Positions 1-14,998 of a DNA stretch of 16,051 nt are shown here, piece after piece; position 1 is the stretch's first letter; every line of letters starts with the position of its first letter. Source of the stretch: a virus (lineage: Duplodnaviria; Heunggongvirae; Uroviricota; Caudoviricetes); IMG/VR virus record IMGVR_UViG_2541047805_000003, positions 1 through 16,051 of that record; one strand, written 5' to 3'. The position numbers and the translations under genes were made by a program. Below the pieces are notes generated by a model. It did no database searches. It had not been told where the DNA came from and was given only the letters and a program-made list of their open reading frames with translations.

Positions 1-567
1 ATGCTTATTGGCTATGTACGCGTGTCAACAAATGACCAGAACACCGATTTGCAACGTAGTGCGCTGAACTGCGCGGGATGTGAGCGGATTTTTGAGGATA
101 AAATCAGTGGCACTAAGTCCGACAGACCGGGGCTGAAAAAACTGCTCAGGACACTATCGGCAGGAGACACGCTGGTTGTCTGGAAGCTGGACAGGTTGGG
201 GCGCAGTATGCGGCATCTTGTTACGCTGATAGAAGAGTTGCGCCAGCGTGGCGTGAATTTCCGAAGCCTGACTGACAGTATTGATACCAGCACCCCAATG
301 GGCCGTTTCTTTTTTCATGTCATGGGGGCCCTGGCTGAAATGGAACGCGAACTGATAGTTGAACGTACCAGGGCGGGGCTGGCTGCAGCTCGTGCTAAAG
401 GCAGAGTAGGTGGACGCCGTCCTAAGTTGACCACCGAACAGTGGGCACAGATTGGACGTTTACTCGAGGCCGGAGAATCAAGACAGCGTATTGCACTGAT
501 TTTTGATGTGGGTGTTTCCACAATTTATAGAAAATTTCCGGCAAATAAGAGCAATGAATCCCCCTGA
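1..567 (+). CDS. Serine recombinase, DNA invertase of the Gin/Pin/Cin/Hin family
   Basis: 188 aa. N-terminus MLIGYVRVSTNDQNTDLQ with the catalytic serine context, VVWKLDRLGRS, and a C-terminal HTH (GRRPKLT...STIYRK); near-collinear with Mu Gin / e14 Pin as remembered. Lies directly upstream of a tail gene, as expected for a tail-fibre inversion module. Confidence 0.93.
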   Translation: MLIGYVRVSTNDQNTDLQRSALNCAGCERIFEDKISGTKSDRPGLKKLLRTLSAGDTLVVWKLDRLGRSMRHLVTLIEELRQRGVNFRSLTDSIDTSTPMGRFFFHVMGALAEMERELIVERTRAGLAAARAKGRVGGRRPKLTTEQWAQIGRLLEAGESRQRIALIFDVGVSTIYRKFPANKSNESP

Positions 568-615
568 ATCAGCATTATGTTGATTATCCCTGCAAGCAGA
601 CAAATACCGTCATTT

Positions 616-633
616 TGTATGAATAACGGTACA
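616..633 (+). promoter_or_regulatory. TGT-N12-ACA dyad, candidate Ogr/Delta-type late promoter activator site upstream of the FI fragment
   Basis: tgt(616-618)-N12-aca(631-633), about 80 bp upstream of the FI ATG at 710. P2-family late promoters carry this dyad centred near -55. No convincing -10 element was identified. Confidence 0.3.
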
Positions 634-709
634 ACTGCGCTTAGCTGTTTGTCAGGCACAATCACTTCAACATAGGGCGAAGCCTAATCCAATCAGGAGG
701 TTCGCCACT

Positions 710-1320
710 ATGGCTCAGGATTACCACCACGGGGTGCGCGTTGTTGAAGTCAACGAAGGCACCCGATCCATTACCACGGTGAGCACCGCCATCGTGGGTA
801 TGGTCTGCACGGGCGATGATGCCGATGCAAAAATGTTTCCTCTTAATAAACCCGTGCTGATCACTGATGTGCTGACTGCCAGCGGTAAAGCGGGTGAGTC
901 CGGCACGCTGGCCCGTTCGCTGGATGCCATCGCTGACCAGGCAAAACCCGTGACCGTTGTTGTGCGTGTGCCGCAGGGTGAAACGGAAGAAGAAACCACG
1001 ACCAATATCATCGGCGCAGTGACTGCTGAAGGTAAAAAAACAGGCATGAAAGCCCTGTTATCTGCCCAGACACAGCTCGGCGTTAAACCGCGCATTCTCG
1101 GCGTGCCAGGTCACGATAACAAAGCCGTTGCTACTGAGTTGCTGAGTGTGGCGCAAAGCCTGCGTGGGTTTGCTTACCTGTCAGCGTATGGCTGCAAGAC
1201 GGTGCAGGAGGCGATCACTTACCGTGAAAACTTCAGCCAGCGCGAAGGAATGCTGATCTGGCCCGACTTTACTGGCTGGGACACGGTGCTGAATGCCGAA
1301 GCAACGGCATATACCGAAAT
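710..1320 (+). pseudogene. Tail sheath protein (P2 FI-like), N-terminal fragment only
   Basis: The first ~200 aa (MAQDYHHGVRVVEVNEGTRSITTVSTAIVGMVCT...NFSQREGMLIWPDF) look like a contractile tail sheath N-terminus. After about nt 1320 the frame continues to 1468 without sheath-like sequence. Strong RBS aggagg at 695-700. A full P2 FI is about 396 aa. Confidence 0.75.
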
Positions 1321-2312
1321 TCCAGGAGCTGCGCAAAGTGGCTTCCGGTATGGCTATTCACAAGAAATGGCGACAGACCTATTTTTCCACGCCATCCAGT
1401 CTGACACACAGTGCTTATCCGTTCTGGTCCGGTGCGCTGTTCAACCGTGGGCGCAACAGAGCCGATAAGGTGGACATCGACCTGTCCCACAGCAATCTGG
1501 CCCCCGGCCTGCTGTGCGCAGACGGGCAATACCGCCAGATAGTCACCGTGGAAGATGCGGTGCGCGGCGGCTGTAACCTGTTCGACCTTGACCAGTTGCG
1601 CATGGAGTACAGCCCTGACGAATACCAGAACTTGCTGATGTGCGAGTTCGTGGACGATCTCGCGTCCGTGTTCCCGCTCAGCGAATTGCAGGCGTGCATG
1701 GTGGACAGCTGGGAAGTCTGGACCGACTTTCATGCACTGGCCCTGCGCCCGTTTGGCTGGCGCGAAGTGTGGATCGGTTATGACCCGGCAAAAGGTACGC
1801 AGAACGGCGACAGCGCCGGATGCGTGGTGGTGGCACCGCCAGCCGTGCCAGGCGGTAAGTTCCGCATTCTTGAGCGTCACCAGTGGCGCGGAATGGACTT
1901 TCGCGCCCAGGCTGACGCCATCAAAAAACTGACCGAACAGTACAACGTGACCTATATCGGCATCGACTCAACCGGCGTTGGTCACGGGGTTTACGAGAAC
2001 GTGAAAGCGTTTTTTCCTGCCGTCCGGGAGTTTGTCTACAACCCCAACGTTAAAAACGCCCTGGTACTCAAGGCCTACGACATTATCAGCCACCGCCGTC
2101 TTGAGTTTGACGCCGGGCACACCGACATTGCGCAGTCATTCATGGCAATCCGTCGCGCCACCACCGCCAGCGGCAACCGCCCGACCTATGAAGCCAGCCG
2201 CAGCGAAGAAGCCAGCCATGCCGATCTGGCCTGGGCAACAATGCACGCACTGTTTAACGAACCACTGCAGGGCGAGTCCGCCAATACCAGCAATATTGTG
2301 GAGATTTTTTGA
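1293..2312 (+). pseudogene. Terminase large subunit (P2 gpP-like), C-terminal fragment only
   Basis: The translation from about nt 1326 onward (KKWRQTYFSTPSSLTHSAYPFWSG...SRSEEASHADLAWATMHALFNEPL) resembles the C-terminal nuclease half of a P2-type terminase ATPase subunit. The N-terminal ATPase half is absent and the 5' boundary abuts the FI fragment. The TGA stop overlaps the portal ATG (TGATG). Confidence 0.75.
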
Positions 2313-3337
2313 TGGGAAAGAGTAAGAAGAACCGCGCTGCGGCGACGAAACAGATCCAGCATAAAAACCAGACTTCAGCCGAAGCATTCAGCTTCGGTGA
2401 TCCCGTTCCTGTTCTGGACCGCCGCGAACTGCTGGACTATGTGGAATGCGTACAGATGGACCGTTGGTATGAGCCACCAGTGAGTTTCGACGGCCTGGCG
2501 CGAACCTTCCGTGCCGCCGTACACCACAGCTCACCGATTGCAGTAAAGTGCAACATTCTGACCAGCACCTATATCCCTCACCCGTTGCTCAGCCAGCAGG
2601 CTTTTTCACGTTTTGTGCAGGACTATCTGGTATTTGGTAATGCCTACCTGGAGAAACGCACGAACCGCTTCGGTGAAGTTATCGCCCTTGAACCTGCCCT
2701 GGCAAAATACACTCGACGCGGATTAGACCTGGATACCTACTGGTTTGTGCAATACGGTATGGCAACCCAGCCGTATCAGTTCACGAAAGGCAGCATCTTT
2801 CATCTGATGGAACCGGATATTAATCAGGAGATCTACGGCCTGCCTGGCTATCTTTCTGCTATTCCATCCGCTCTGCTCAACGAGTCCGCCACGCTGTTCC
2901 GCCGGAAGTATTACATTAACGGCAGTCATGCAGGCTTCATCATGTACATGACCGATGCCGCGCAAAACCAGGAGGATGTGAACAACCTCCGCAACGCAAT
3001 GAAAAGCGCCAAAGGACCGGGTAACTTCCGCAACCTGTTTATGTACTCGCCTAACGGCAAAAAGGATGGGCTTCAGATCATTCCTCTGTCAGAAGTCGCG
3101 GCGAAGGATGAGTTTCTGAATATCAAAAATGTCAGCCGCGATGACATGATGGCAGCACATCGCGTACCGCCGCAAATGATGGGGATTATGCCTAGCAATG
3201 TCGGGGGGTTTGGGGATGTAGAGAAAGCTAGTAAGGTATTTGTGCGGAATGAGCTTTTACCTTTGCAAAAATTGATGCAAGCGCTTAATTGTTGGCTAGA
3301 TGAAAATATAATTACATTTAATAAATATATTTTGTAG
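2312..3337 (+). CDS. Portal protein (P2 gpQ-like)
   Basis: 341 aa from the ATG at 2312 (the ORF track starts at the TTG at 2309). Length and sequence character fit a P2 Q portal (about 344 aa). Follows the terminase gene on the same strand with a stop/start overlap. Confidence 0.88.
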   Translation: MGKSKKNRAAATKQIQHKNQTSAEAFSFGDPVPVLDRRELLDYVECVQMDRWYEPPVSFDGLARTFRAAVHHSSPIAVKCNILTSTYIPHPLLSQQAFSRFVQDYLVFGNAYLEKRTNRFGEVIALEPALAKYTRRGLDLDTYWFVQYGMATQPYQFTKGSIFHLMEPDINQEIYGLPGYLSAIPSALLNESATLFRRKYYINGSHAGFIMYMTDAAQNQEDVNNLRNAMKSAKGPGNFRNLFMYSPNGKKDGLQIIPLSEVAAKDEFLNIKNVSRDDMMAAHRVPPQMMGIMPSNVGGFGDVEKASKVFVRNELLPLQKLMQALNCWLDENIITFNKYIL

Positions 3338-3351
3338 TTCCTGTTTATAAT

Positions 3352-3373
3352 TAACGCCTGCCTGAGCAGGCGT
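3352..3373. terminator. Hairpin between the convergent portal gene and the DUF262 gene, probable bidirectional terminator
   Basis: aacgcctgc (3352-3360), loop ctga, gcaggcgtt (3365-3373): 9-bp perfect stem. Followed by ctttcattt on the + strand and by an A/T-rich run on the - strand. Confidence 0.5.
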
Positions 3374-3377
3374 TCTT

Positions 3378-5159
3378 TCATTTAAAACGTGTTGCAATAT
3401 CTGCTGCTTCGATAACTGTTGCTTTTACGGTATTATCGCCAGCACGATAATAAATATCCCCATCATAACTAGAATAAGATGCTAGAAGTGGAATTGTAAT
3501 AACTATAACTCCATAACCATAAAAGTCATTATAGTCAATCAAACTCACCACTTGTGATTTAAGAGGCTCACTCAAAGCAGATTTTTTCAACTCATCGCAA
3601 AAACGTCTATAATATTCTTCCATTGATATGCCGAGTTTAATAGCTTCTCTTTTAACACCAACAACACTTCTCTCACCAACTACATGTGCATCTATATCAT
3701 CAAGCTCTTTTACTCTACTTGTATCACTTGGTTTATCTGTTACACCAAGCAATAACTTACCAACTACACCGTTCTTGTTACCTTTACCGATGTTAGCAAT
3801 AGCACAAATTGTGGAGAATATTTTCTCATGAATGCCATCATCAATAGTTCGCTCTCCGCCTAACATCAACAAACCCTGTTTCAGTTCATAATTTGCAAGC
3901 TCTATTTCAGATCTTCGTAAAATATCCTCAATATCCACCGTATTGTGAGAATTATAGATATGACTGCTATCGGCGCTATCAATAAAGTTATCTTTAATCA
4001 AGCCTATGATAGAATTAATATTCTTTCTTCTCTCTTCCCCACCAGTAGCAGATCTTTTAGTATCTAGTCGAGTGACTATATTATTAAGATTGTCTTTTAC
4101 ACCTTTATAATTATTAATCTTCTTATTTTCTTTAATGAGTAATTCATGAAAAGCAATAAATAACACAGCAAATATGGCTGGGAAAGCATTTGTAGTACGT
4201 TTAGTAAAGATTAAATCCCTGAGTTTAATTTCACCGTCACTATTACATACTTTTGTTATTTCCTGGATGCAGAATTTAAACTCTTCTGCAAATTTTCCTT
4301 CACCATAAACATTAATAGCAGAGCTAATACGACTATACTCTTCATCTTCATTATTATAAATCTGATCAAGCGCATCTTTGGAACGATCTATTAACTTACC
4401 TCCAACAATACAAGCTGCTATATCTGCAATGCATTGCTCATCCATACTGTCACGAAGGTCTGTTGAACGTAAGATCCCATGTTTTACCCAAAATACTTCT
4501 TCCGACTGAATTTGGTAACCATGTTTAGTTAGTGGCAAATCAATGCTAATAGACGGCATTTGCTCTAAAAGCAATATGTCGTCAGATACATCCCCCCTGA
4601 TAGAACAGGCAATATCCCTAACCATATTTGAAAATTTATTTTGTATACCAGCCTGGCGCCTTTCTTGATCACTAAGTCTATGCCCGTATGTATTAATTCT
4701 ATCAAAAACATCATTTATTTCGTTCTCAGTCGCATTACGCATAATGGACATTGCAAGAGAATAATCCAATAACTGAGTAACCTCACGCTGACTTAAAAGA
4801 TTATCAGCTTTCACTGCAACAAACTTACCTTCATCCGCTCGATTTTTCGCTGTGGGAAAAGCGTCCAGATTAAAACGTTTTCCATCAAGTGATTCATATC
4901 CTGTTTCGATGAAAGACATTATTGCATGTAATCTTTGTAGGCCATCAATTATTTCATATGTGCCAGGATCATTTTCCCTTTCCGCGAGAAGAACTGCAGG
5001 AATTGGATATTTTTTTTGAATGGATTCAATTAATTTTTGTTTCTCTATTGCAGTCCAAACTAATTTTCGTTGATAACGTCTATTAACAAATATCTTACCT
5101 TCAGTAAACCATGAATAAATAGTTTGTATAGAAGTTGTTTGCGGTAATAGTTCAGCCAT
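3378..5159 (-). CDS. DUF262 (ParB/GmrS-like NTP-binding) domain protein with an uncharacterised C-terminal half; candidate defence protein
   Basis: 593 aa, ATG with AAGGAA about 9 nt upstream. N-terminus has the DUF262 hallmarks YQRKLVW and IIDGLQRL (DGQQR-like). No DUF1524/His-Me finger motif seen in the C-terminal ~350 aa. Coding sequence is markedly AT-rich compared with the flanking phage genes. Confidence 0.75.
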   Translation of the reverse strand: MAELLPQTTSIQTIYSWFTEGKIFVNRRYQRKLVWTAIEKQKLIESIQKKYPIPAVLLAERENDPGTYEIIDGLQRLHAIMSFIETGYESLDGKRFNLDAFPTAKNRADEGKFVAVKADNLLSQREVTQLLDYSLAMSIMRNATENEINDVFDRINTYGHRLSDQERRQAGIQNKFSNMVRDIACSIRGDVSDDILLLEQMPSISIDLPLTKHGYQIQSEEVFWVKHGILRSTDLRDSMDEQCIADIAACIVGGKLIDRSKDALDQIYNNEDEEYSRISSAINVYGEGKFAEEFKFCIQEITKVCNSDGEIKLRDLIFTKRTTNAFPAIFAVLFIAFHELLIKENKKINNYKGVKDNLNNIVTRLDTKRSATGGEERRKNINSIIGLIKDNFIDSADSSHIYNSHNTVDIEDILRRSEIELANYELKQGLLMLGGERTIDDGIHEKIFSTICAIANIGKGNKNGVVGKLLLGVTDKPSDTSRVKELDDIDAHVVGERSVVGVKREAIKLGISMEEYYRRFCDELKKSALSEPLKSQVVSLIDYNDFYGYGVIVITIPLLASYSSYDGDIYYRAGDNTVKATVIEAADIATRFK

Positions 5160-5293
5160 GAAACAAATTCCTTCTTCTGGATAGAATTTTATAATATAGA
5201 AACTGAAAAGGTTAAGTTACCATCAAAAATGATGATAGCAACAAAAAGATACCATTTTGTAATTTTTTGTTCAGATTTTCATATCAGAGCGCG

Positions 5294-5312
5294 CTCGTAT
5301 CCCCGCCACGCC
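5294..5312. other. cos-like sequence (186/P2-type cohesive-end motif)
   Basis: The minus strand reads GGCGTGGCGGGGATACGAG; the first 13 nt match the 186 cohesive end (GGCGTGGCGGGGA...) as I remember it. It lies in a short GC-rich islet inside otherwise AT-rich cargo, between replication gene A and portal Q, where P2-family cos is expected. Confidence 0.4.
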
Positions 5313-5361
5313 TGCCCGCTTTATGTAGTGGTTTTCATGCAGGTGCATGACATAAGCAAAA

Positions 5362-5381
5362 GCCCGCCAGTTCTGGCGGGC
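5362..5381 (-). terminator. Candidate intrinsic terminator downstream of the two-gene operon
   Basis: gcccgcc (5362-5368), loop agttct, ggcgggc (5375-5381), followed on the minus strand by TTTTGCTTATG. Lies 146 nt downstream of the membrane-protein gene and upstream of the DUF262 gene promoter region. Confidence 0.45.
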
Positions 5382-5526
5382 CTCAGCAAAAACGATCCTA
5401 AAACGATCATGCGGATTCATGCAGCATAGACATGCAAAGCTTGTTAGAACGGTGATTCCCATGTTAAAGGAGGCTTACTCTTGTTGAGGTTAAACATCCA
5501 CAGTAACTCCTGCCAATACGAACACT

Positions 5527-6063
5527 TTATTCATCATAGTGTTCTAATTTCGCTTTTGCTAAACGTCCATGTAAGTGATTAACAAAATGTAAATTACTCA
5601 AAATCAGGCTCATAACGCATTTTAATTGCATCCAGCTAATAAAGTAAATGAAGAAAATACCAATGTATTTAAACAAGTCTTTATTAGCTTGATAAACAGG
5701 TAATGCATAAAACACTGCCTTAACCAAAAAGAAAATTAGAATCCCAGCCATAACACAAGCAGATGTGATTATTGTATAAACTAATTTCTCTATTCTTGGT
5801 GAGTCATGCTCATTTTTTATATAACTTACATCATCCTTAACAATACTATTCATTGCATTCGGATATAAAAAACCGACCCATAAACCGACAATAGTGAATA
5901 TAGATGCTGAAATATTTATAAGCGCACCTAAAATATCTTTTGCATCATTATAGGAAAAACTTTTGAACGAAAAATAGCTTATAACGCAGCACAAAACAAC
6001 AGCAACAAAATTAATCGCCTGCTGTTTTGCAACTGTTATTATCAAACCTTCCGTTTCTGTCAT
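5527..6063 (-). CDS. Small multi-pass membrane protein (about 4 predicted TM helices); candidate effector
   Basis: 178 aa. Hydrophobic stretches INFVAVVLCCVISYFSF, ILGALINISASIFTIVGLWVGFLY, LVYTIITSACVMAGILIFFLV and YIGIFFIYFISWMQLKCVMSLILS. ATG at 6063 sits 1 nt after the upstream stop (TGATATG on the minus strand) with a GGAAGG SD inside the upstream gene. AT-rich. Confidence 0.75.
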   Translation of the reverse strand: MTETEGLIITVAKQQAINFVAVVLCCVISYFSFKSFSYNDAKDILGALINISASIFTIVGLWVGFLYPNAMNSIVKDDVSYIKNEHDSPRIEKLVYTIITSACVMAGILIFFLVKAVFYALPVYQANKDLFKYIGIFFIYFISWMQLKCVMSLILSNLHFVNHLHGRLAKAKLEHYDE

Positions 6064-6064
6064 A

Positions 6065-7264
6065 TCAACCTTCCGCTATCTTTTTTGTGGATGCAGCTTC
6101 AGATTCTTTAATGGATGCTTCCTCAGCATATTTTACTTCACTAATCAAATCATCACGAATTTTGTTTATTTCATCCAGTAAAAAACGCGCTGAATAATGC
6201 TCAAACCCATCCGAATCTTGAAGAGGAAGTTTAGTCCTGGCTACATAGCTACTGAGCCAAACCGGATTAGCACGATCAGCCAGTAAAAAACCCACATCCC
6301 ATTCAGACTCTTCACCTCTCATTGAGAAGAGATTTCGAAGCTCATCCGATGATGGTGCACCGTCAATTTTAACTTCAATTTTACGAGGCTGCTCCAAAAC
6401 AGGAGGTGCCCCAATAAGCTTATTACGCTTTTCTTCACCCACCAGAGATGCTAAAGCTACACTTGTTAGCTTCAACAATGGTTGCCTTGTGTCATTTTGG
6501 TTTATTACCGTTGTATCCTTTATCAATGTGTGTGTAATTTTATGCCTTAACCTTTCAAAGTTTTCCTCAGCGGCTTTAAGTTTTGTTTCTTCCAATACAA
6601 ACTTGAAGATACAGTTTATCTCATTTTTGCCATCTTTATATTGAAACTTAGTATTGTAGACATCCACACAACGACCAGGGGTCTTAGCTGATTCAAATGT
6701 ACGCTTAGATTTCGTTCTTTTACCTAACTTACTATTATTATTTACATGCTGAATGAAGTATTGTGCGAAGAGATAAGTATCAGCGAAAGAATGGGGGAAT
6801 CTGATTGATGCTATTTTATTCAACTCAGGAATAATCCAGTAATAGCAGGGTTCACCCCAAATTATTTTATCCTCACCATGTTCTCTTCCCGCCCTAATGG
6901 TTCCTTTACTATCACCACTTACTTTAGAACCGACCTTAATACCATGTATTCCGTTACCGTTCCCCACTTCACGGTATAAAACAATTACTGCATCTTTAGT
7001 CTGGCTGTCCCTCACAAGGCCTCGACTGTAAACTCGTGTTCGCAGAGGTTGTTCTTCTTTATTCCATGGGAGAGTCTGCTCAAAATTTTTATCCTTGAGC
7101 CACCCTTCTAAATCGTCCAAAACCCCCATAAGATCGCCGAATTTATAATCAAGCTCTTCGGGTTTATTCTTTAAACGATAAAACCCACAAGCAGTAATAT
7201 CAAAGAAGGTGATTGAGCCGTTGTCCACTAAAACTCCTTTTTGCCAAAGCAACACACGATACAT
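6065..7264 (-). CDS. Hypothetical 399-aa soluble protein, no recognisable family; first gene of a two-gene operon with the membrane protein
   Basis: Long AT-rich ORF with an ATG start and a weak SD. Translationally coupled to the downstream membrane-protein gene. One R-x4-H match (RHKITH) is the only motif noticed, and that is weak. Confidence 0.7.
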   Translation of the reverse strand: MYRVLLWQKGVLVDNGSITFFDITACGFYRLKNKPEELDYKFGDLMGVLDDLEGWLKDKNFEQTLPWNKEEQPLRTRVYSRGLVRDSQTKDAVIVLYREVGNGNGIHGIKVGSKVSGDSKGTIRAGREHGEDKIIWGEPCYYWIIPELNKIASIRFPHSFADTYLFAQYFIQHVNNNSKLGKRTKSKRTFESAKTPGRCVDVYNTKFQYKDGKNEINCIFKFVLEETKLKAAEENFERLRHKITHTLIKDTTVINQNDTRQPLLKLTSVALASLVGEEKRNKLIGAPPVLEQPRKIEVKIDGAPSSDELRNLFSMRGEESEWDVGFLLADRANPVWLSSYVARTKLPLQDSDGFEHYSARFLLDEINKIRDDLISEVKYAEEASIKESEAASTKKIAEG

Positions 7265-7429
7265 TTTTCACGTATACCATCAGAATCGTCCCTAAACTTC
7301 AAGTTACTTATGATAATCAAGAAAGCTGTCGAATGTTGTTGCATAGGCCAAAGTTTCAGGGGAACAAGGCATTCTTAAATCACTTTTCACTACCCGTTTC
7401 TAACGCCTCACGCGGCTCGTTGTTCAACC

Positions 7430-7464
7430 TTGCGGACGATAAAAACCAGTTTTATCGTCCGCAA
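7430..7464. repeat. Perfect 15-bp inverted repeat with a 5-nt loop
   Basis: ttgcggacgataaaa (7430-7444), accag, ttttatcgtccgcaa (7450-7464). Lies immediately 3' of the DinI-like gene and in the upstream region of the 399-aa gene. No U-tract follows on either strand. Confidence 0.6.
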
Positions 7465-7470
7465 CGTTCG

Positions 7471-7704
7471 CTAGTGTAACCAGCTGTCGTCCTCCCAGAC
7501 CTTCTGCATAATTTTCATCACTTGTTTTCTTTCTTCGTCCAGTTGCAGTCCGGTCAGTTCCACACCGTTAGAGCTACCTTTGCGGATACGAATTACCGTT
7601 TTGGGATACAGGGGGCGCAGATTGCGGTAAAGCTCGGATTCAAGGGCGTCCAGTGTAGACTGGCTAATCTTCTGCTCTTTATCGATCATTATTTCAATGC
7701 GCAT
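7471..7704 (-). CDS. DinI-like protein (DNA-damage-inducible protein I family; 186 Tum C-terminal-like)
   Basis: 77 aa from the ATG at 7704 (GAGGTG SD). MRIEIMIDKE...LDALESEL...VWEDDSWL aligns along its length with E. coli DinI (MRIEVTIAK...IDALAGEL...TWESADDWF) as remembered. Confidence 0.75.
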   Translation of the reverse strand: MRIEIMIDKEQKISQSTLDALESELYRNLRPLYPKTVIRIRKGSSNGVELTGLQLDEERKQVMKIMQKVWEDDSWLH

Positions 7705-7714
7705 AAAAGTCACC

Positions 7715-7903
7715 TCAGCTGATGACATCCATTGAGCGGTTGTATTCATGGGTTCTGATTTTTGCCATGAGTTCATCTGTCAGTTCAGAAACCCACTGCA
7801 GGGCCAGCCCCTTCTCTTCATCACTACACTCACTAGCCGCTACAAGCTTAAGAAAAAAATCAATGCGCTGGAGCTTCAAAGACTCCAAAAAATAGTCCTG
7901 CAT
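7715..7903 (-). CDS. Hypothetical 62-aa protein, first gene of the LexA-boxed operon
   Basis: ATG at 7903 with AGGAGG 4 nt upstream; ends 11 nt before the DinI-like start. No recognisable motif. Confidence 0.5.
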   Translation of the reverse strand: MQDYFLESLKLQRIDFFLKLVAASECSDEEKGLALQWVSELTDELMAKIRTHEYNRSMDVIS

Positions 7904-7945
7904 CTTTCCTCCTATGACACCAAAGCAATACTGTATACATAACCA

Positions 7946-7961
7946 CTGTTTATATTTACAG
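7946..7961 (-). promoter_or_regulatory. LexA (SOS) box CTGT-N8-ACAG, with an adjacent imperfect box at 7931-7946
   Basis: ctgtttatatttacag fits CTGT-N8-ACAG with an AT-rich centre. The neighbouring tactgtatacataaccac has a perfect left half only. Located 43-58 bp upstream of the 62-aa ORF start, in the A to DinI intergenic region. Confidence 0.65.
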
Positions 7962-8055
7962 TATATAATAATCTTACTGATGTAAAACGTTTTTTTACGT
8001 TCATCAGCCTGGTATGCCTGGTATTATTAAGAGCACGAATTGTTAACCCGCGTAA

Positions 8056-10428
8056 TTAATACAGATCCCGCCACTTATCATCTTCCTGCAAACGCTGGTT
8101 CCGATAGAAGATACGCAGGCCTGCTCCTGACGGAATACTGCCACCGCGAAGGAGTAAATCGACCTCTTTCTCGCTGCCATCAAATCCTCTGGACTTCAGT
8201 TCATAGACGAGCTGCTGTCGCTGATGATCTGTAATTCGCTGTTTGTAGTCTCTACGCCGTTTCGGTTTCACCAGGCGTAACCTTGCAGCCAGTTCCCGGC
8301 GCTCTTTTTTGTTCATACTGTGCAGGTAATCGTGCAATTCCTTGTCATCCATGCGGGTGATATCCGTTCTGGTATCCCCATCAGCTGATTTGTCTTTCCC
8401 TTGTTGGTACAAATTTTCAGCAAGGGGACAGTTATTGCCACGAGTCCAAGGGGCGCAAGCGCCCTGGTCGGCTGCCGCCTCCTGAACATCAACGGCCTTA
8501 CGAACCATTTTCCACTTCACGGCATGAGTGCAGATCTTGCCCTCTGCAATAGGTGACCAGATGCCATAAATACGAATGCCGTGATCGCCATAGGCGGTCG
8601 GCTCTTCGTTGATTTCATAAGCGGTTCTGATGAGGTGATATTTGCGGGGAACCAGTACGCCGCCCTGCTTCATGATGTAGGTGGCAAAACAACCAGCATC
8701 AGCAGCAGCCAGGATGGCATCAAGGCGCGGGTTATCCAGTACCGGCGCACCTGCTTTTTTGTCCCCCTGTTGCCTTGCCGCCTGACCAGCCAGCAATCGC
8801 AGTTCACGGTAAGCCTGACGCCCCGGAATGCCAAAGAAGCGGAATTGCTGAACACGATGCAGAGACGCCCAGGCATTAACGTATTCAGCATTATCACGCA
8901 GGGATTTCCCCGTTTCCTTGCTGATCTCGCCAGCCAGACCACGCCCGTCAATGTTCTTACTGATGTATTTCGCGATGTAGCTTGTTGGCGTACCTTTGCG
9001 CGGGTTAATCAACTCAGACTTAAAGCGCGGCCCAGTGTTATTGCCCAGTTCCTCGCGGTCTTCACGGATGGCAAACTTACGCAGTAATGCAGTGATGGCG
9101 CGGCGGTCTTTTTTGCGCATAAAACACAACAGGTGCCAGTGAACTGTACCGTCATGATGCGGCTCAGCCACCCGCACGCCATACCACCGCAATCCGGCTT
9201 TGTGCATCGCCTTACGAAATGCAGCAAACATGCCGACCAGATAATCACTGCTTTGTCTTACCGTCGCATTTGTCCAAGTTGGGTTGGGCCTGCCATTATT
9301 TAGCGTGGAATGGAAACGTGACGGACAGGTGATGGTGTAGAAAACGGCGCAGTCACCGCGCATTTCCGCGATAAGCTCCAGGCCTTTAACACAGGCCATC
9401 ATCTCATTGCGGCGATGCGCAGGGTTGCTGCTGCTGGCGTTTACCACATCCTCCATGTCCAGCGTGTCGCCGTCTTCGTTCACCAGTTCATGAGAACGAA
9501 AAAACTCCAGCGACTTACGGCGCTGCTCACGTTTATGCATCACGGCTTCATAGCTGACATAGGGAGATGCTTTTTTGCTGACCAGGCAGACAGCACGCAA
9601 CTGCTCTTCCCGCCATTCGCAACGCATCTTCCATAATTTCCGGTACCACCAGTCAGCGCACAACATACGCGCCAGCGAACCCGGAATGAGTTCATAGGGC
9701 ACGGGTTTACGGCGGTTTCTTTTCCGGCGGAGTTGCTCAAACGCAGGCGGGATGACATCCAGACGCAGGGTTTCCGCTGCCACCTTTTCCCATGTCTTGC
9801 GGATTTCTTCTGGCTTAACGTCATCGGTGACATACAAATCGCCACAAGCTGCATCAAGGCACATGCTCATATGCGCAGCTACCAGGGTGGACAGGCGTTT
9901 CACCTGATCCTGACTCATTTCAGGCAGGATCAGCAGGCCGTCCAGCCCTTCATGGCTTGCCATAAAGCGAAAAGAAGTGGATAGCTGACAGTCGCGTACA
10001 TGCTCCAGCCGTTCCAGACATGGCTTAATCGTCTCACGCAAATAGCGGGAATAAGCCTTTGGCCTGCCCAGGCTGCTGAAGTATTCAATACGTTGCATCA
10101 GCGGCTTGCTGATATGGGAAGGCTGGGCATTGACGTCCGCCAGAATGACCATATCTGGATTAAAACGCTGCTGCTCATGCGCCAGCTTTGCCCGACTAAT
10201 GAGCTTATCCTGCTCCATTTCGCGCTGGACAGGATCACGGGATTCATTAAAGAAATAACGCTCCCAGACCTGATCACTCAGTGCCTCGCGGCGCAGCTGT
10301 TCCTGCTCGTTATCGGCAGCGTACAGAGCGATCAGATTTGAAAGCGCAGAAACTGAAGATTGCTCTTCTGTCTCTACGTAAGGATTGATTGCTTTTTTCT
10401 CAGCATTCCAGGAATAGCTGTAGTTCAT
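8056..10428 (-). CDS. Replication initiation protein (P2/186 gpA family rolling-circle endonuclease)
   Basis: About 790 aa with the HUH-type motif [15 protein letters not shown] and the active-site tyrosine motif [14 protein letters not shown]. Start taken as the ATG at 10428 (GGAG SD; TAATG overlap with the upstream stop) rather than the TTG at 10479 listed in the ORF track. Confidence 0.88.
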
Positions 10429-11258
10429 TACGCAATCTCCAGTTCGAGCTGTGAAGGCTGCAAACCATTCGACAGCCAATCAGAAACTGAAGGTGGGCGA
10501 ACAGCTTCAATTGCACCTTTTAAAATTGCGCAACGGTTTTTCAGAATGACAGCTTTCAGCTCCTTTTCCGTCAGATTGCGCGAATACTCAGCCTCCTGAA
10601 TAGCCCGCGTCAGCTCAGGATATTTGCTATTAAATTTGGGGACATTGCAGGCAAGATTTGTACTGTCGGCAGTCGCCAGTGGGTAATTTCCCAACACACG
10701 ACCGTCAAGCATGCGCAAACCATGAACAGCTGTTTTGAAATTGTGTCGGCAATAAATTGCTTCAAAAGCGTCCTGCATACGACGATGCCAGTGCGCAGTT
10801 CTGATAGCCGCATATTCACCAGACGATCCAAAGCAGACACGAGGCCATTCACGACATAGCTCGATAAGCCGATCGATTGACTCGTGCAGATGCCAGACGG
10901 GAGTTGCCTTCCCGTAGAACATTTTCGGAACTTCGTTTATCAGGGCATCATTGTCACGTTCACCTCCGTCCACAACATCAGGAATGACAAAAAAAGCGAC
11001 CTTAGGATGGTGGTAATAGTTCAGGAGCCATTTATAAAAATCACTCCAGTTAATTTTTAGCCCACGCACCCATGCAGAAAATGCGCCGTTATCAATGCCG
11101 ACGACCTGAGCGTGCTGAATGGACGCCGCAATCTGATCTGGTCGTACATAGGAGACGAAAGCGCCAGCTCCGCTCACCGCAATACGATGAACGTCGCCAG
11201 CACTTCCCCAGACAGGCGTCCCATGGAAATGATGAATTCCGTGGTGCATTTCTTTCAC
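10428..11258 (-). CDS. Hypothetical 276-aa protein, translationally coupled between Dam and gene A; function unknown
   Basis: GTG start at 11258 overlapping the Dam stop (GTGA), or ATG at 11249. His/Trp-rich N-terminus ([10 protein letters not shown]). No confident motif match. Confidence 0.65.
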
Positions 11259-12109
11259 ACTTGCACCCCGAAAATAACAGTAGAGTCACGTCCCCTACTA
11301 AAATCGGCACTAAACCAATTAGCAGATTTAGTGGCAATCATCTCTGTTGCAAATTTTCCCTCCCCCGCTGCAACGCCGATGCTGCGTTTCGCCCTGATGT
11401 AGTGGTGAGTGAAATTACGATAAAGGGACCGGGTCAAAGACGTGTTACTGTTAGAAACAATGACCGGATGTCCTTCTGATGACCGATGTTCAAGAATGGA
11501 TGCCAGGTGATACTGATCATCTTCAGTGAAACCATCAGTGTGATAGCCGGAAAACGTACCGTCATAAGGCGGATCGCAATACACCACATCCCCCACCTTC
11601 AACATCGCCAGCGTTTCATCAAAGCTGGCGCAGATAAACGTTGCCCGCTGGGCTTTCTCTGCAAATGCGCGAATTTCTTTTTCAGGGAAATACGGATTTT
11701 TATAATTACCGTAGGGAATGTTGAAATGCCCGCTCTTGTTATAGCGACATAAACCACGGTAACCGTGACGATTGAGATACAGGAAATATACCGCTTTCAT
11801 GAAATCAGTAATTTCAGTGGAGTAATTAAACTCCTGCCTTATGTTGTAATAAGCCACCTCTCTGTTTGCTTCCTCAAATAAAGCTCTGGCACGAGATATA
11901 AACGCCTCACAATCAGCAGCAACCTTTTTATAGAGGTTGATTAAATCAGGATTAATATCCGCAACAAGATAGCTGGGGTAATCCGTCTCCATCATCACTG
12001 CACAGGAACCCGCGAAAGGTTCAACCAGTCGCGGGCCAGCAGGAAGATGCTTTTTCAGTTCGGACATTATGGCGGTTTTATTTCCTGCCCATTTCAGGAT
12101 GGTGCTCAT
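11255..12109 (-). CDS. dam: DNA adenine methyltransferase (Dam family, GATC-type N6-adenine MTase)
   Basis: 284 aa from the ATG at 12109 (ATGA overlap with the upstream stop). LKWAGNK, the DPPY catalytic motif and [16 protein letters not shown] are near-collinear with E. coli Dam. Confidence 0.9.
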
Positions 12110-12333
12110 ACAGCACCTCCGTTGTAATGTTTGCCTTTCAGCTCTGCGATTTCCTGACAGGTAATGCAAAGCTGCACACCCGGAATGGCACGGCGGCGTG
12201 CTGGCGGAATTGGCGCTTCACACTCAACGCAAAGCACGCGGGACACGCCCGGCGTTTTGGCACGGGCAGCACGGATATGGCGTTGGCGTTCTTCTTCAAC
12301 GCGCTGCTGTACGAGATCCATTGCATCAGCCAT
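12106..12333 (-). CDS. TraR/DksA-family C4 zinc-finger protein (P2 Orf82-like)
   Basis: 75 aa with CVECEAPIPPARRRAIPGVQLCITCQ, i.e. CxxC-x17-CxxC, closely resembling F-plasmid TraR. Confidence 0.8.
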   Translation of the reverse strand: MADAMDLVQQRVEEERQRHIRAARAKTPGVSRVLCVECEAPIPPARRRAIPGVQLCITCQEIAELKGKHYNGGAV

Positions 12334-12566
12334 CAGTGGATCTCCTGCGCTTCGTTCTGGATTGCTTCAGCAGTCACACGCAACAGTTCTGCCGCTTCGA
12401 CGTGGTTTAGCTGGCGGGAGGTGATATGACACGCCAGGCTATCGAGGCGAGCAGCCATTGCTTCAGCCCTTGCCCGGCGTTCTTCCAGACGAGCCTCTGT
12501 CAGTAAAAGATTAAGACCTGCATCATCCGGTCCGGTTTTGGTCGTGAGGGTTTCAATATTACGCAT
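12333..12566 (-). CDS. Hypothetical small protein (77 aa) in the early operon
   Basis: ATG at 12566 with AGGAG about 8 nt upstream; stop overlaps the TraR-like start. The ORF track lists a TTG start at 12572. Confidence 0.55.
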   Translation of the reverse strand: MRNIETLTTKTGPDDAGLNLLLTEARLEERRARAEAMAARLDSLACHITSRQLNHVEAAELLRVTAEAIQNEAQEIH

Positions 12567-12633
12567 AAGCAATTCTCCTGAATTTAGATAAAGGGATGCC
12601 CGGCGGGTTTACGCCATTAATTTCATTAGTTGG

Positions 12634-12975
12634 TTAATTCGGCATGGTTAGCCGTCTGGGAAATAAGCTCACCACTGCACGAAAATGATTCATTGCTTTA
12701 ATCAACTCCCGCTTTTCGTCAGTGGTCAGCTCATTAATGCTGATGCTATGACGTTCAGCTGGAATTTTTGCCATAAAGAATATGGCAGCCAGTGCCCGTT
12801 TATTTTGTTCATTATTGATATCCCGAGGATCACGCATATCTTTAATAAACCGCTCAAGCTCTGACTCAATATTCAAACCAAAAACTTTCGCCCTTAACTC
12901 CGCAATATGATTAAGTCCATTCAGGCGTTCACCGGGTCTTAATGGAACAGTCGCCGCAGCGCCTTCAATAGCCAT
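12634..12975 (-). CDS. Hypothetical early protein (113 aa)
   Basis: ATG with GGGGGA SD; sits between the cII-like gene and the TraR-like gene as in P2/186 early operons. Confidence 0.6.
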   Translation of the reverse strand: MAIEGAAATVPLRPGERLNGLNHIAELRAKVFGLNIESELERFIKDMRDPRDINNEQNKRALAAIFFMAKIPAERHSISINELTTDEKRELIKAMNHFRAVVSLFPRRLTMPN

Positions 12976-13139
12976 TTGTTCCCCCGTTTTTTCGTAGATA
13001 GTTCTGCCAGCAATTCATCTTGTGAACGGCACGGATGCCAGCGTTTACCATCCTCACCCATGATCCAGCCGTGACCGTAGTGCATTGCCGGACTTTGTTT
13101 TACCAGCAGCGATGCAAATGATGGTTCTTTCGTCAGCAT
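12939..13139 (-). CDS. Hypothetical small early protein (66 aa)
   Basis: ATG at 13139 with GAGGTG SD, immediately after the CII-like stop. Overlaps the next gene's start by 37 nt in another frame. Confidence 0.45.
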   Translation of the reverse strand: MLTKEPSFASLLVKQSPAMHYGHGWIMGEDGKRWHPCRSQDELLAELSTKKRGNKWLLKALRRLFH

Positions 13140-13146
13140 AAGCACC

Positions 13147-13656
13147 TCACAGCAAACCGAATGAAGCACCGAGGCCAGTCACGGTATCAACTGCACTCGC
13201 CATCGCAGGATTAGCCTGTAAACGGGCCTGCAATGAAACAGCAGCCAGCGCCATCAGTCGTGTAACAGAGTTAATGCTGCTGATCGCATCACGACGGCCT
13301 GCACTGGTTTTTACATCGCCAGAAACCGCACCTGCCGCGACACGCCCTATCTCTGCAGTTGCACTCATGACGTAATGCGGCAGTTTCTCTTTTGCCACCT
13401 CATTAATCGGTACACATGGCAGGCAGTGAATCTGTGCCAGAAAGCCATCTACCAGCGTTGAATCTTCAGTCAGATCGGTAAGCAACCAGATTTCTGGTGC
13501 GGTTAATAAATGAGGTTGAGCTGGGTTCAGCTTGTTCCGCAGAATCTGCACATTCATGCCTGCACGTTCTGCCAGTTGCACTAGGTTGTGGCGCAATGCG
13601 AATGCACGACAGGCTTCATCAAAATGTGGATGTTTGGAAACTTGGTAATCAAACAT
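13147..13656 (-). CDS. CII-like transcriptional activator (phage 186 CII / CP76 family)
   Basis: 169 aa from the ATG at 13656 (the track lists TTG at 13662), the same length as 186 CII. N-terminal [24 protein letters not shown] and [31 protein letters not shown] resemble 186 CII as remembered. Second gene of the lytic operon after the apl-like gene. Confidence 0.75.
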
Positions 13657-13688
13657 GGTCAATGCCTCTGATGTATTTCAGAATCGAA

Positions 13689-13910
13689 CTAATTAAGGTT
13701 TAGATTGCATTCTGAAAGCGCATCAACGGTCATGGCTGCTATGTTGATCATCACTTTTTCACGTTTTTTATCTTTGCGCAGACGGTGACGGATAAGGCGT
13801 CCGTCAGCCAACATGTCATTGATGGTATCGATGGACAGCCCTGTCAGCTCGCTATAGCGTTCAATAGTCACATGAGGCGTGGTAAGAGTGATTGAAATGT
13901 TAGGTCTCAT
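13689..13910 (-). CDS. Apl/Cox-like excisionase and switch regulator
   Basis: 73-aa basic protein with an HTH-like segment ([24 protein letters not shown]). First gene of the operon divergent from the repressor, the position of 186 apl / P2 cox. Confidence 0.6.
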
Positions 13911-14035
13911 GATGCAACATTCCTCGTTTAATGATGATTAATCAGGACGAATACGGATCGTTTGTATTTTGTGAACACCATAAACATACGATCGCACAGT
14001 GAAATCGTCAAGATAAAAGTTCACTTGGAGTGACC
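13911..14035. promoter_or_regulatory. Lysis-lysogeny switch region between divergent apl-like and cI-like genes
   Basis: 125-bp AT-rich intergenic region containing the inverted repeat gtgaac (13971-13976) / gttcac (14019-14024) and several gtgaa half-sites. By analogy with 186/P2, convergent promoters and operators are expected here. Confidence 0.45.
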
Positions 14036-14605
14036 ATGAATTTGGAGAAAGGCGGACGAGGCGCTATAGAGCGCATGGTAGAAGCTTATGGATTCAAAAC
14101 TCGACAGGCGTTGTGCGATCATTTAGGAATCTCTAAAAGTACACTCGCCACACGCTACATGCGTGACTCATTCCCAGCAGAATGGGTAATCCAGTGCGCC
14201 CTTGAAACGGGCACCTCGCTTAATTGGCTCACAACCGGACATGGTTCAAAGCAAACTTCAGGTAATACAAATACTATGGAAGTTGCTAAATATGTATTAT
14301 CTGATGGTGCCTTGCGTGAAGACGGTTTTTATATTTTTGATAAGGGATTTCTACCCTCTACGTTTAAAAAACCTTTTGTCATCACAGATAACAATTCTGA
14401 ATTTATTTGTGATAAAGAATTTGATGATATACGTGACGGTAAATGGGTAATAAGTATTGATGGCGAAATAACAATCCGCGACATTACTCGTTTACCCGGT
14501 GGAAGAATCTTCGTTGAAGGTGGAAACAGAGCCTTCGAGTGCAAGATAGAAGATGTTGAAATAATTGGGAAAATTATAAGTTTAACAATTAAGTACGTTA
14601 GGTAA
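14036..14605 (+). CDS. CI-type immunity repressor (186 CI-like)
   Basis: 189 aa from the ATG at 14036 (GGAG SD). N-terminal HTH (TRQALCDHLGISKSTLATRYMR); divergent from apl/cII; upstream of and co-oriented with int. Confidence 0.78.
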   Translation: MNLEKGGRGAIERMVEAYGFKTRQALCDHLGISKSTLATRYMRDSFPAEWVIQCALETGTSLNWLTTGHGSKQTSGNTNTMEVAKYVLSDGALREDGFYIFDKGFLPSTFKKPFVITDNNSEFICDKEFDDIRDGKWVISIDGEITIRDITRLPGGRIFVEGGNRAFECKIEDVEIIGKIISLTIKYVR

Positions 14606-14620
14606 TACCGGGAGGAAACT

Positions 14621-14812
14621 ATGCTTGGTAAGGTATTTTTTGTGGTTTTATCATGCTCTTTGTTATTAAACCCACTAACTACCTATGCTAAAAATTATCC
14701 TTGTTCTGGGAAAAAGGGAGGTGTCTCTCACTGTACCTCCGATGGAAAGTTCGTTTGCAATGATGGAACTATTAGTAAATCAAAAAAAATCTGTACTAAA
14801 AACTCGCGATAA
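14621..14812 (+). CDS. Small secreted cysteine-rich peptide (63 aa), candidate moron in the lysogenic operon
   Basis: Strong RBS GGAGG 5 nt upstream. N-terminal signal peptide ([23 protein letters not shown]) and a roughly 40-aa mature region with four Cys. Lies between cI and int on the same strand. Confidence 0.5.
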
Positions 14813-14998
14813 ATTTTGCTTTTATATCTGCGCCTAATATAACAATGAGCCGCAGGCTAACCGCAAAAGTCACATACTCACATAGCAAAAAATAGCCAAC
14901 TTCATTATGGCTTCAGTGAGATGTATGGTCGCAGGATTTCATACATTGACACTGGTTATATATACAGTAAAGATGCTCTCTATTGGAGGGCATTTTTT

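What the first reader, a model, noticed from the sequence alone, without database searches (positions are those of the whole stretch)
710..2312. Tail sheath N-terminus joined to terminase C-terminus: a rearrangement junction
Around nt 1320-1330 an FI-like fragment runs directly into a gpP-like fragment on the same strand. In P2, P and FI are on opposite strands and about 20 kb apart, so a simple deletion cannot produce this. It is consistent with one endpoint of an inversion between mid-P and mid-FI, possibly followed by deletion. Either way the element cannot make particles on its own, yet it keeps an intact portal, the immunity/replication module and the cargo island. The adjacent DNA invertase is a plausible agent of an aberrant inversion.
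Basis: partly seen in the sequence, partly recalled or inferred. Interest (0 to 1): 0.6.

Follow-up and report, generated by a model that had tools for sequence, protein, structure and literature searches.

The report
Inversion scar in a defective prophage
The tail-sheath/terminase fusion is real: it is one end of an 11-kb inversion with deletions that has crippled a P2-like prophage in one E. coli strain, which is ordinary prophage decay and shows no sign of being the invertase's work.

Summary
Confirmed. The window is from E. coli HVH 164 (scaffold KE700470.1).

**The junction.** It lies at nt 1311/1312, with a 2-bp 'AT' overlap. The first 201 codons of sheath gene FI run into codon 256 onward of terminase gene P on the same strand.

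**Compared with the intact UMNK88 prophage** (99-100% identical, P and FI 13.5 kb apart on opposite strands):
- A block from P-N through the tail fibre genes, invertase and FI-N is inverted.
- The other endpoint, 10.9 kb left of the window, joins P codon ~226 to mid tape-measure gene T.
- The exchange is not reciprocal. 86 bp of P and 3.7 kb (FI-C, FII, E, T-N) are lost.
- A separate 2.6-kb deletion removes lysis and R/S/V genes.
- Portal, cos, defence cargo, replication and immunity genes and int have no internal stops.

**Rarity.** None of 5,426 complete E. coli genomes or 61 matching phage records has the junction.

**Invertase.** The six breakpoints match its 26-bp crossover sites no better than background (4-9 of 24, against 24/24 for the native sites). 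Two-bp overlaps are typical of deletions in related prophages. Illegitimate recombination is the best explanation.

**Seen in passing.** At least eight independent deletions in related prophages end at one dinucleotide in gene P (window 1416/1417). I could not explain this.

The parts
1..567 (+). Intact serine DNA invertase gene (188 aa, Hin/Gin/Cin family). It lies in its native position upstream of FI.
   Evidence: Pfam Resolvase 2.6e-53 plus HTH_7. The identical protein sits next to a full-length FI in many intact prophages. Its native crossover sites lie just left of the window.
710..1312 (+). FI (tail sheath) codons 1-201. This is the left arm of junction J1.
   Evidence: 99.9% identical to UMNK88 FI. 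Homology stops at 1312. Pfam Gp18_domIII_N plus Phage_sheath_1 positions 1-102 of 168.
1311..1312 (.). Junction J1: the 2-bp microhomology 'AT' shared by both parents (FI ...GGCAT-AT-GCC..., P ...CTGG-AT-ACC...).
   Evidence: Overlap of the two BLAST blocks. Parent and junction alignment.
710..1468 (+). Chimeric ORF: FI 1-201 followed by 51 out-of-frame residues read from P DNA. Annotated as hypothetical protein EQS85577.1.
   Evidence: the ORF listing. The exact sequence is the only member of its cluster among about 15 billion proteins.
1313..2312 (+). gpP (terminase ATPase/nuclease subunit) codons 256-588. This is the right arm of J1. The gene caller takes GTG 1470 as the start (280 aa). A longer in-frame ORF starts at ATG 1293 inside FI-derived DNA.
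   Evidence: 100% identical to UMNK88 P from 1311 onward. Pfam Terminase_6N 107-214 plus a full Terminase_6C.
1416..1417 (+). The 'TA' in gpP codon Tyr291. It is intact here, but it is the recurrent deletion endpoint in other P2-like prophage remnants.
2312..3337 (+). Intact portal gene Q (341 aa).
   Evidence: 341 of 341 residues identical to UMNK88, with no internal stops. Pfam Phage_portal.
5289..5436 (-). cos region, retained.
   Evidence: 93.9% identical over 148 nt to the record ends of phage Cartapus, where the depositors annotate a putative cos.
3378..16051 (.). The rest of the prophage, colinear with the parent and free of internal stops: GmrSD, PDC-M18-like pair, DinI, replication endonuclease A, Dam, regulators, CI and integrase running into attL.
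   Evidence: Gapless alignment. CDS-by-CDS check. PADLOC and Pfam hits.

Best explanation
The junction is a dead scar in a defective P2-like prophage (Peduoviridae, Elveevirus-like) of E. coli HVH 164. The right flank beyond int matches the rcdA side of the UMNK88 insertion site. The ybjL side was not read and is assumed.

**What the DNA shows**
- A single resident prophage was broken in gene P and in the FI-to-T region.
- The intervening block (P-N, O, N, M, L, X, Y, K', W, J, I, H, the invertible tail-fibre segment, the invertase and FI-N) was rejoined in inverted orientation.
- 86 bp were lost at the P break and 3,724 bp at the FI-to-T break.
- A separate 2,608-bp deletion runs from K to V.
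- Each of the three joints has 2 bp of microhomology and no added bases.

**What is inferred**
- The joints were made by RecA-independent illegitimate recombination. This could be double-strand breaks with resection and microhomology-assisted end joining, or replicative template switching. It could have happened in one complex event or in two steps (inversion, then a deletion across one joint).
- The scar itself has no function.
- Its consequence is a prophage that cannot package DNA, build tails or lyse the cell. It still carries immunity, int, replication genes, cos, portal, defence cargo and an apparently active tail-fibre invertase.
For: **Structure**
- The window is identical to KE700470.1.
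- All pieces map to the one UMNK88 prophage at 98.8-100% identity. The two arms of P share no bases, nor do FI-N and T-C; DNA is missing at each break rather than duplicated.
- J1 joins FI 30531 to P 17004. J2 joins P 17091 to T 34256. The deletion spans 21739-24346. Each joint has a 2-bp overlap.
- The products of all three junctions are recorded from both NCBI and Logan sources.
- There is no IS or inserted DNA at any joint.

**Microhomology**
- The chance that three random blunt joins all show at least 2 bp of overlap is about 0.004 (0.156 cubed, my calculation).
- Six unrelated deletions ending in or near P in related IMG/VR prophages have overlaps of 0, 2, 2, 2, 3 and 8 bp. Two bp is therefore the usual signature of decay in this family.

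**Against an invertase origin**
- The invertase sites are elsewhere, and the breakpoints do not resemble them.
Against: - The mechanism is inferred from scars only.
- Exactly 2 bp at all three joints is also what a serine recombinase would leave, and an apparently active one is encoded 0.7 kb away.
- The order and number of events cannot be reconstructed. No intermediate form exists among the 5,426 complete genomes.
- The left chromosomal flank (U, D, ogr, ybjL) was not read.
Confidence: 0.75

Rival explanations
1. The resident Hin/Gin/Cin-family invertase made the inversion, and perhaps the deletions, by recombining non-cognate 'quasi' sites that share only the 2-bp crossover dinucleotide.
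For: - All three joints have exactly 2-bp overlaps, and two of them (AT, TA) are palindromic.
- The invertase gene is intact.
- Both assemblies break exactly where the two orientations of the invertible segment diverge, which suggests the enzyme is active.
- Cin recombination at quasi sites chosen by the central dinucleotide has precedent: Iida & Hiestand-Nauer 1987, cited in PMC4134206.
Against: - With the 2-bp overlap placed at the crossover position, the six breakpoints match the native half-site positions at 4, 7, 8, 8, 9 and 6 of 24. The prophage background mean is 9.0. By construction the native sites match at 24/24 on this measure; they match the 26-bp consensus at 20-22 of 24.
- The native core is AA/TT, not AT, TA or CA.
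- The two inversion joints are not reciprocal, so at least two further off-target events would be needed. One would be a deletion, which Fis-dependent invertases disfavour (established knowledge of the family).
- Related prophages show the same 2-bp signature at plain deletions.
Confidence: 0.07
2. The junction arose by exchange between two different P2-like prophages lying in inverted orientation in the same chromosome, as seen in ETEC1749 and rl0044. It was not a rearrangement within one prophage.
For: Inter-prophage inversions of this family do exist. In ETEC1749 the halves of the rcdA-ybjL prophage lie about 80 kb apart, each fused to part of a second P2-like prophage.
Against: - In HVH 164 both inversion endpoints lie 10.9 kb apart in one scaffold.
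- Every piece is 99.6-100% identical to the single UMNK88 prophage.
- The two arms of P share no bases, and neither do FI-N and T-C.
- The exchange points are in non-homologous genes.
Confidence: 0.03
3. The junction is an assembly or library chimera.
For: It is seen in only one strain. The scaffold has a gap nearby, in the invertible segment.
Against: - J1 is inside a contig in two assemblies made by different pipelines. The Logan contig is recorded in 4 samples and the NCBI contig in 2.
- The J2 and deletion products are also recorded from both sources.
- Two-bp overlaps cannot cause k-mer mis-joins.
- The pieces fit together as one coherent inversion.
Confidence: 0.02

Closest known systems
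Intact P2-like prophage of E. coli UMNK88 (NC_017641.1, 914-949 kb) and phage Cartapus (Elveevirus, Peduoviridae)
   Same: The same genes at 98-100% (UMNK88) or 98.3% (Cartapus, invertase-FI) identity. The right flank matches the rcdA side of the UMNK88 insertion site. The same invertase, crossover sites, cos and cargo positions.
   Different: In those genomes P and FI are full length, on opposite strands and 13.5 kb apart. HVH 164 has the block inverted and has three stretches deleted.
Deleted P2-like prophage remnants in other E. coli and in IMG/VR (L017-L025, L031, L040-L099)
   Same: Late genes are fused to a truncated P with 0-8 bp of microhomology. The Q side, early genes and cargo are kept.
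   Different: All of those are simple deletions in parental orientation. HVH 164 is the only inversion found, and its breakpoints are unique.
Cin/Gin/Hin/Pin tail-fibre inversion systems and Cin 'quasi-site' recombination
   Same: A member of this invertase family with typical 26-bp sites is present next to the junction. The joints have 2-bp overlaps, as serine recombinases would leave.
   Different: The breakpoints carry no recognisable half-sites, the core differs from the native one, and the exchange is not conservative.
RecA-independent illegitimate recombination and alternative end joining in E. coli (Chayot et al. 2010, from my own knowledge; discussed in PMC4872102, listed but not read)
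   Same: Short microhomology at the joints, loss of DNA at the ends, and no specific sites.
   Different: Those studies mostly describe deletions. An inversion with flanking deletions needs four ends, or two template switches, to be resolved together.

Membership tests
P2-like (Peduoviridae) prophage | P2-type structural and replication genes: gpP-type terminase, portal Q, FI sheath and a gpA replication nickase | tested here: met
   Pfam hits to Terminase_5, Terminase_6N/6C, Phage_portal and Phage_sheath_1; Phage_GPA is among the precomputed Pfam hits listed.
P2-like (Peduoviridae) prophage | P2 gene order with P-Q divergent from O-N-M-L, and a P2-like cos | tested here: met
   The parent UMNK88 and phage Cartapus show the canonical order. 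The window itself departs from it only at the junctions. The window region 5289-5436 matches the Cartapus record ends, where the depositors annotate a cos homologous to that of P2. The P2 19-mer itself finds no match within 3 mismatches.
Serine-invertase (Din family) inversion product | About 26-bp imperfectly symmetric crossover sites at both breakpoints | tested here: not met
   Breakpoints score 4-9 of 24, no better than the background mean of 9.0. The native sites define that measure (24/24) and match the 26-bp consensus at 20-22 of 24.
Serine-invertase (Din family) inversion product | Conservative, reciprocal exchange at a 2-bp core identical in both sites | tested here: not met
   A 2-bp overlap is present, but the second joint is displaced by 86 bp in P and 3,724 bp in FI-T. 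The cores are AT and TA, against the native AA/TT.
Serine-invertase (Din family) inversion product | Intact invertase with a recombinational enhancer and Fis dependence | tested here: inconclusive
   The gene is intact and the assembly breaks at the invertible segment suggest activity. The enhancer and Fis dependence were not examined.
Microhomology-associated illegitimate recombination | Short microhomology, no recombinase or IS sequences at the joints, and loss of flanking DNA | tested here: met
   Two bp at each of three joints, no inserted bases, and 86 bp, 3.7 kb and 2.6 kb lost.
Microhomology-associated illegitimate recombination | Independence of RecA; dependence on RecBCD and LigA, or on replication | not testable with these tools
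   This needs genetics.
Assembly chimera | A junction confined to one assembly, or coinciding with a repeat at least as long as the k-mer | tested here: not met
   Two assemblies carry it, and the parents share only 2 bp.

The most novel reading that the evidence does not exclude
The still-active tail-fibre invertase of the prophage acted off-target on sequences that share only a 2-bp core. It thereby made the inversion and deletions that disabled its own phage. A phage-encoded serine recombinase would then be a driver of prophage domestication.
Probability: 0.07. Interest if true: 0.5.

Novelty: new member of a known kind. Interest (0 to 1): 0.22.

Why it matters
By itself, little. It is one more documented way in which a prophage is grounded while keeping immunity, defence cargo, cos and a working tail-fibre switch. 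It also corrects three 'hypothetical protein' annotations (EQS85577.1, EQS86464.1, EQS86471.1), which are fusion artefacts.

It does give a clean, fully resolved example of an inversion with flanking deletions and 2-bp joints in E. coli.

The comparison it prompted found something that may matter more. Independent deletions in P2-like prophages of E. coli repeatedly end at one dinucleotide in the terminase gene; protein data suggest the same in Salmonella. That points to a site-specific, one-sided breakage or joining process that is not yet explained.

Tried and rejected
- **Invertase pseudo-sites.** I derived the native sites from 12 loci and scored all six breakpoints, allowing offsets of up to 3 nt at J1. 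Nothing exceeded background. The only mild hit (13 of 24, top 6%) lies 3 nt off the P crossover.
- **Exact reciprocal junction.** I predicted a 282-aa P'::FI-C fusion, but the real gene is 283 aa. Reading the DNA showed P joined to T instead.
- **Intermediates.** No complete E. coli genome has J1 or J2. Five genomes have both halves of the K-V query close together, but as two pieces, so those are different deletions.
- **Species representatives.** A scan for the gpP hotspot flank found only 3 loci, all with an intact P.
- **Explanations tried for the gpP hotspot, none supported:**
  - Hairpin: fold z-scores of -0.4 and -0.1.
  - Chi: none in window 1-3400.
  - P2 or 186 ori nick similarity: weak. 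The real ori maps about 7 kb away in gene A.
  - cos: located elsewhere, and the P2 cos 19-mer finds no match in the window within 3 mismatches.
  - The 13-nt copy in gene A as a second hotspot: not seen in a 60-row sample.
  - Small indels at the site in frameshifted P alleles: the lesions lie elsewhere.
  - Mirror-image events or insertions at the site: 0 hits in IMG/VR.
- Proteins not encoded in the window could not be looked up.

Full report
**Source and reference**

The window is identical to part of scaffold KE700470.1 of GCA_000458495.1, and the same sequence was assembled independently by Logan from SRR958310. The strain is Escherichia coli HVH 164 (4-5953081).

The best reference is the intact P2-like prophage of E. 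coli UMNK88, which lies between rcdA and ybjL (locus L001). Free phages of the same type include Escherichia phage Cartapus (Elveevirus, Peduoviridae). Cartapus is 98.3% identical over the invertase-FI stretch.

**The observation**

- Window 1-1312 equals L001 29220-30531 on the + strand (99.9%). This covers the invertase gene and the first 201 codons of sheath gene FI.
- Window 1311-16005 equals L001 17004 down to 2310 on the opposite strand, gapless, at 98.8%. This covers P from codon 256, then Q, the cargo, A, the regulators, CI and int.
- The junction is therefore at 1311/1312, and the two parents share only 'AT' there.
- Pfam confirms a sheath truncated after position 102 of 168 of the Phage_sheath_1 model. 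It also confirms a terminase lacking Terminase_5 and the first half of the ATPase domain.
- In UMNK88 and in every matching phage record, the two pieces lie on opposite strands in separate places. None of the 61 matching phage records, and none of the 5,426 complete E. coli genomes, has them adjacent.
The truncation calls stand.

**The rest of the rearrangement**

I read the scaffold 10 kb to the left of the window (L002, L011). It shows, right to left:

- the invertase;
- a run of 1,930 Ns lying exactly between the two native crossover sites;
- H, I, J and W;
- a joint between the middle of lysozyme gene K and the last ~20 nt of V (L001 21739-24346 missing, 2-bp overlap);
- Y, X, L, M, N and O;
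- the N-terminal 226 codons of P;
- the middle of tape-measure gene T in its sense orientation (L001 17091 joined to 34256, 2-bp overlap 'TA').

So the block L001 17091-30531 is inverted in place (10.9 kb in HVH 164).

The two inversion joints are not reciprocal. 86 bp of P (17005-17090) and 3,724 bp (30532-34255: FI-C, FII, E/E', T-N) are absent. I had first predicted an exact reciprocal P'::FI-C fusion of 282 aa. The annotated gene is 283 aa, and reading the DNA showed the real partner is T.

All three fusion products are recorded from both NCBI and Logan sources. The FI'::P protein is the sole member of its cluster among about 15 billion proteins.

**What survives**

A CDS-by-CDS comparison with UMNK88 finds no internal stops in the following:

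- Q (341 of 341 residues identical);
- GmrSD and the two cargo proteins;
- DinI, A, Dam and the small regulators;
- CII, the Cox-like protein, CI and int.

The int gene ends differently from the UMNK88 copy. It runs through the attL core into flanking DNA. cos is present at about 5289-5436.

**Was the invertase the agent?**

- The native sites, found as the best inverted repeat and conserved in 12 related loci, are TTCTCGCATACC-TT-GGTTTGGGAGAA (inside H) and TTCTCCCAAACC-AA-CGTTTAAGAAAA (82 nt upstream of the invertase). Both survive in HVH 164.
- I scored 26-mers centred on the 2-bp overlap of each of the six parental breakpoints against the bases seen at each native half-site position. They gave 4, 7, 8, 8, 9 and 6 of 24.
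- The prophage-wide background mean is 9.0 (sd 2.2). The native sites score 24/24 on that measure by construction and match the 26-bp consensus at 20-22 of 24.
- The cores (AT, TA, CA) differ from the native AA/TT.
- The exchange is not conservative.
- Exactly 2 bp at three joints is more than random blunt joining predicts. The chance of at least 2 bp at one joint is 0.156, so about 0.004 for three (my calculation). But it is not diagnostic.
- In an unbiased set of 80 IMG/VR loci chosen only by identity of the P C-terminus, six carry plain deletions that end in or near P. Their overlaps are 0, 2, 2, 2, 3 and 8 bp.
- I conclude that the joints carry the ordinary signature of illegitimate recombination in this prophage family. 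The invertase idea keeps a small residual probability because of the 2-bp pattern and the documented quasi-site activity of Cin (cited in PMC4134206).

**Other rivals**

- Inter-prophage exchange, as in ETEC1749, does not fit. All pieces belong to one prophage, the arms share no sequence, and both endpoints sit 10.9 kb apart.
- An assembly artefact does not fit. There are two assemblies, the overlaps are only 2 bp, and the overall structure is coherent.

**Mechanism and status**

- Shown: the structure, the losses, the microhomologies, and the absence of recombinase or IS sequences at the joints.
- Inferred: RecA-independent breakage and rejoining, or template switching, in one complex event or in two steps.
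- No intermediate exists in the collections searched.
- The scar has no function. The new arrangement places P-C and Q downstream of FI'.

**An unexpected by-product**

The 280-aa C-terminal P ORF of the window is called identically on more than 100 contigs. In the places fetched, independent deletions with different left partners all end at the same dinucleotide. This is L001 16899, which equals window 1416/1417, the TA of codon Tyr291 in ...GTGCT-TA-TCCGTTCTGG....

The partners, in L001 coordinates, are:

- lysB/C, 22569;
- V, 24264 (also in the complete genome of TW14425);
- H, 26678;
- FII, 31380;
- T, 33902;
- T, 33912;
- T, 34003 (this one is shifted by 1 nt);
- the T/U boundary, 35173.

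In addition, three further truncated proteins, one of them from Salmonella, begin their P homology at Tyr291. Seven of the eight DNA-level junctions share 'TA'. Every event keeps the P-C/Q side.

No mirror events and no insertions at the site were found in IMG/VR.

The sampling is biased toward a window of about 120 nt. Within that window the concentration on one nucleotide is extreme. Other endpoints in P do exist outside it.

I could not explain the hotspot by any of the following:

- invertase sites (3 + 3 = 6 of 24 on my own count with the position sets);
- a hairpin;
- Chi;
- ori-nick similarity;
- cos.

HVH 164's own breakpoints lie 105 and 192 nt away from the site and did not use it.

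**Verdict**

The structural interpretation is supported and is now complete. The invertase attribution is not supported. The finding is an ordinary, if neatly resolved, example of prophage decay.

Noticed in passing
window 1416-1417 (gpP codon Tyr291); loci L017, L018, L020, L022, L025, L031, L118, L124, L142: At least eight independent deletions in P2-like prophages of E. coli, each with a different left partner (lysB/C, V, H, FII, T three times, T/U), end at this same dinucleotide. Three truncated proteins, one from Salmonella, also begin their P homology here. Seven of the eight junctions share 'TA' with the partner, and all keep the P-C/Q side. No mirror events or insertions were found. 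The cause is unknown. I tested invertase sites, a hairpin, Chi, ori-nick similarity and cos, and none explains it.
   Followed up: partly
just left of the window: L011 7962-7987 and 9920-9945 (window -2038 to -55); Logan contig L003 starts 82 nt upstream of window position 1: Both assemblies break exactly at the outer edges of the two 26-bp crossover sites of the tail-fibre invertible segment, which is where the two orientations diverge. The scaffold has 1,930 Ns there. This suggests both orientations were present in the sequenced culture, so the invertase of this dead prophage is still flipping its segment. PMC4134206 describes the same effect in EC958.
   Followed up: partly
L002 4352-4353 (left of the window): There is a second lesion in the same prophage. 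A 2,608-bp deletion runs from mid-lysozyme K to the last ~20 nt of V, removing lysA/B/C, R and S and all but the end of V, with a 2-bp overlap 'CA'. Five complete E. coli genomes have different, independent deletions in the same K-V interval.
   Followed up: partly
NZ_CP122712.1 (ETEC1749) 3436000-3462000 and 3515000-3552000 (L014, L015); NZ_CP121356.1 (rl0044) likewise: In these pig ETEC strains the same rcdA-ybjL prophage is split. Its two halves lie about 80 kb apart, each fused in the tail-fibre/invertase region to part of a second P2-like prophage. This is a large inter-prophage chromosomal inversion. I did not resolve whether it arose by homologous recombination in H or through the invertase sites.
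   Followed up: partly
window 3378-7264 and 5289-5436: cos lies between two cargo islands. One holds a GmrSD-family protein (593 aa; PADLOC NsnA-like, 8e-31). The other holds a gene pair (399 aa and 178 aa) with no Pfam hit that matches the PADLOC candidate defence system PDC-M18 A and B (6e-31 and 3e-18). Related prophages carry other cargo at the same two positions, including SIR2, OLD-like, a reverse transcriptase, SieB and AAA_15/21.
   Followed up: partly
window 14999-16051: The integrase reading frame does not stop where the UMNK88 copy stops. It runs on through the attL core (GGCGACAAAGTGGCGGCAGCG) into flanking DNA, giving 350 aa against 338 aa. UMNK88 has an extra 481 bp with a small ORF between int and the att core. 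Most of the 174 mismatches with UMNK88 lie in window 11468-16005 (the Dam-to-int part), which suggests a mosaic module.
   Followed up: partly
window 8361-8373 (gene A, antisense): There is an exact 13-nt copy (TATCCGTTCTGGT) of the retained side of the gpP hotspot, in the same orientation. It lies about 85 nt from where the P2/186 ori nick maps. The chance expectation is about 0.001-0.015. No deletion endpoint was seen there in a sparse sample.
   Followed up: partly
L016, L021, L023: Some otherwise colinear prophages have P inactivated by a nonsense codon at position 275, or by a 1-nt loss in an A-run at P nt 819. These also yield the same 280-aa C-terminal gene call. Terminase inactivation seems to be a recurrent route of decay.
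   Followed up: yes
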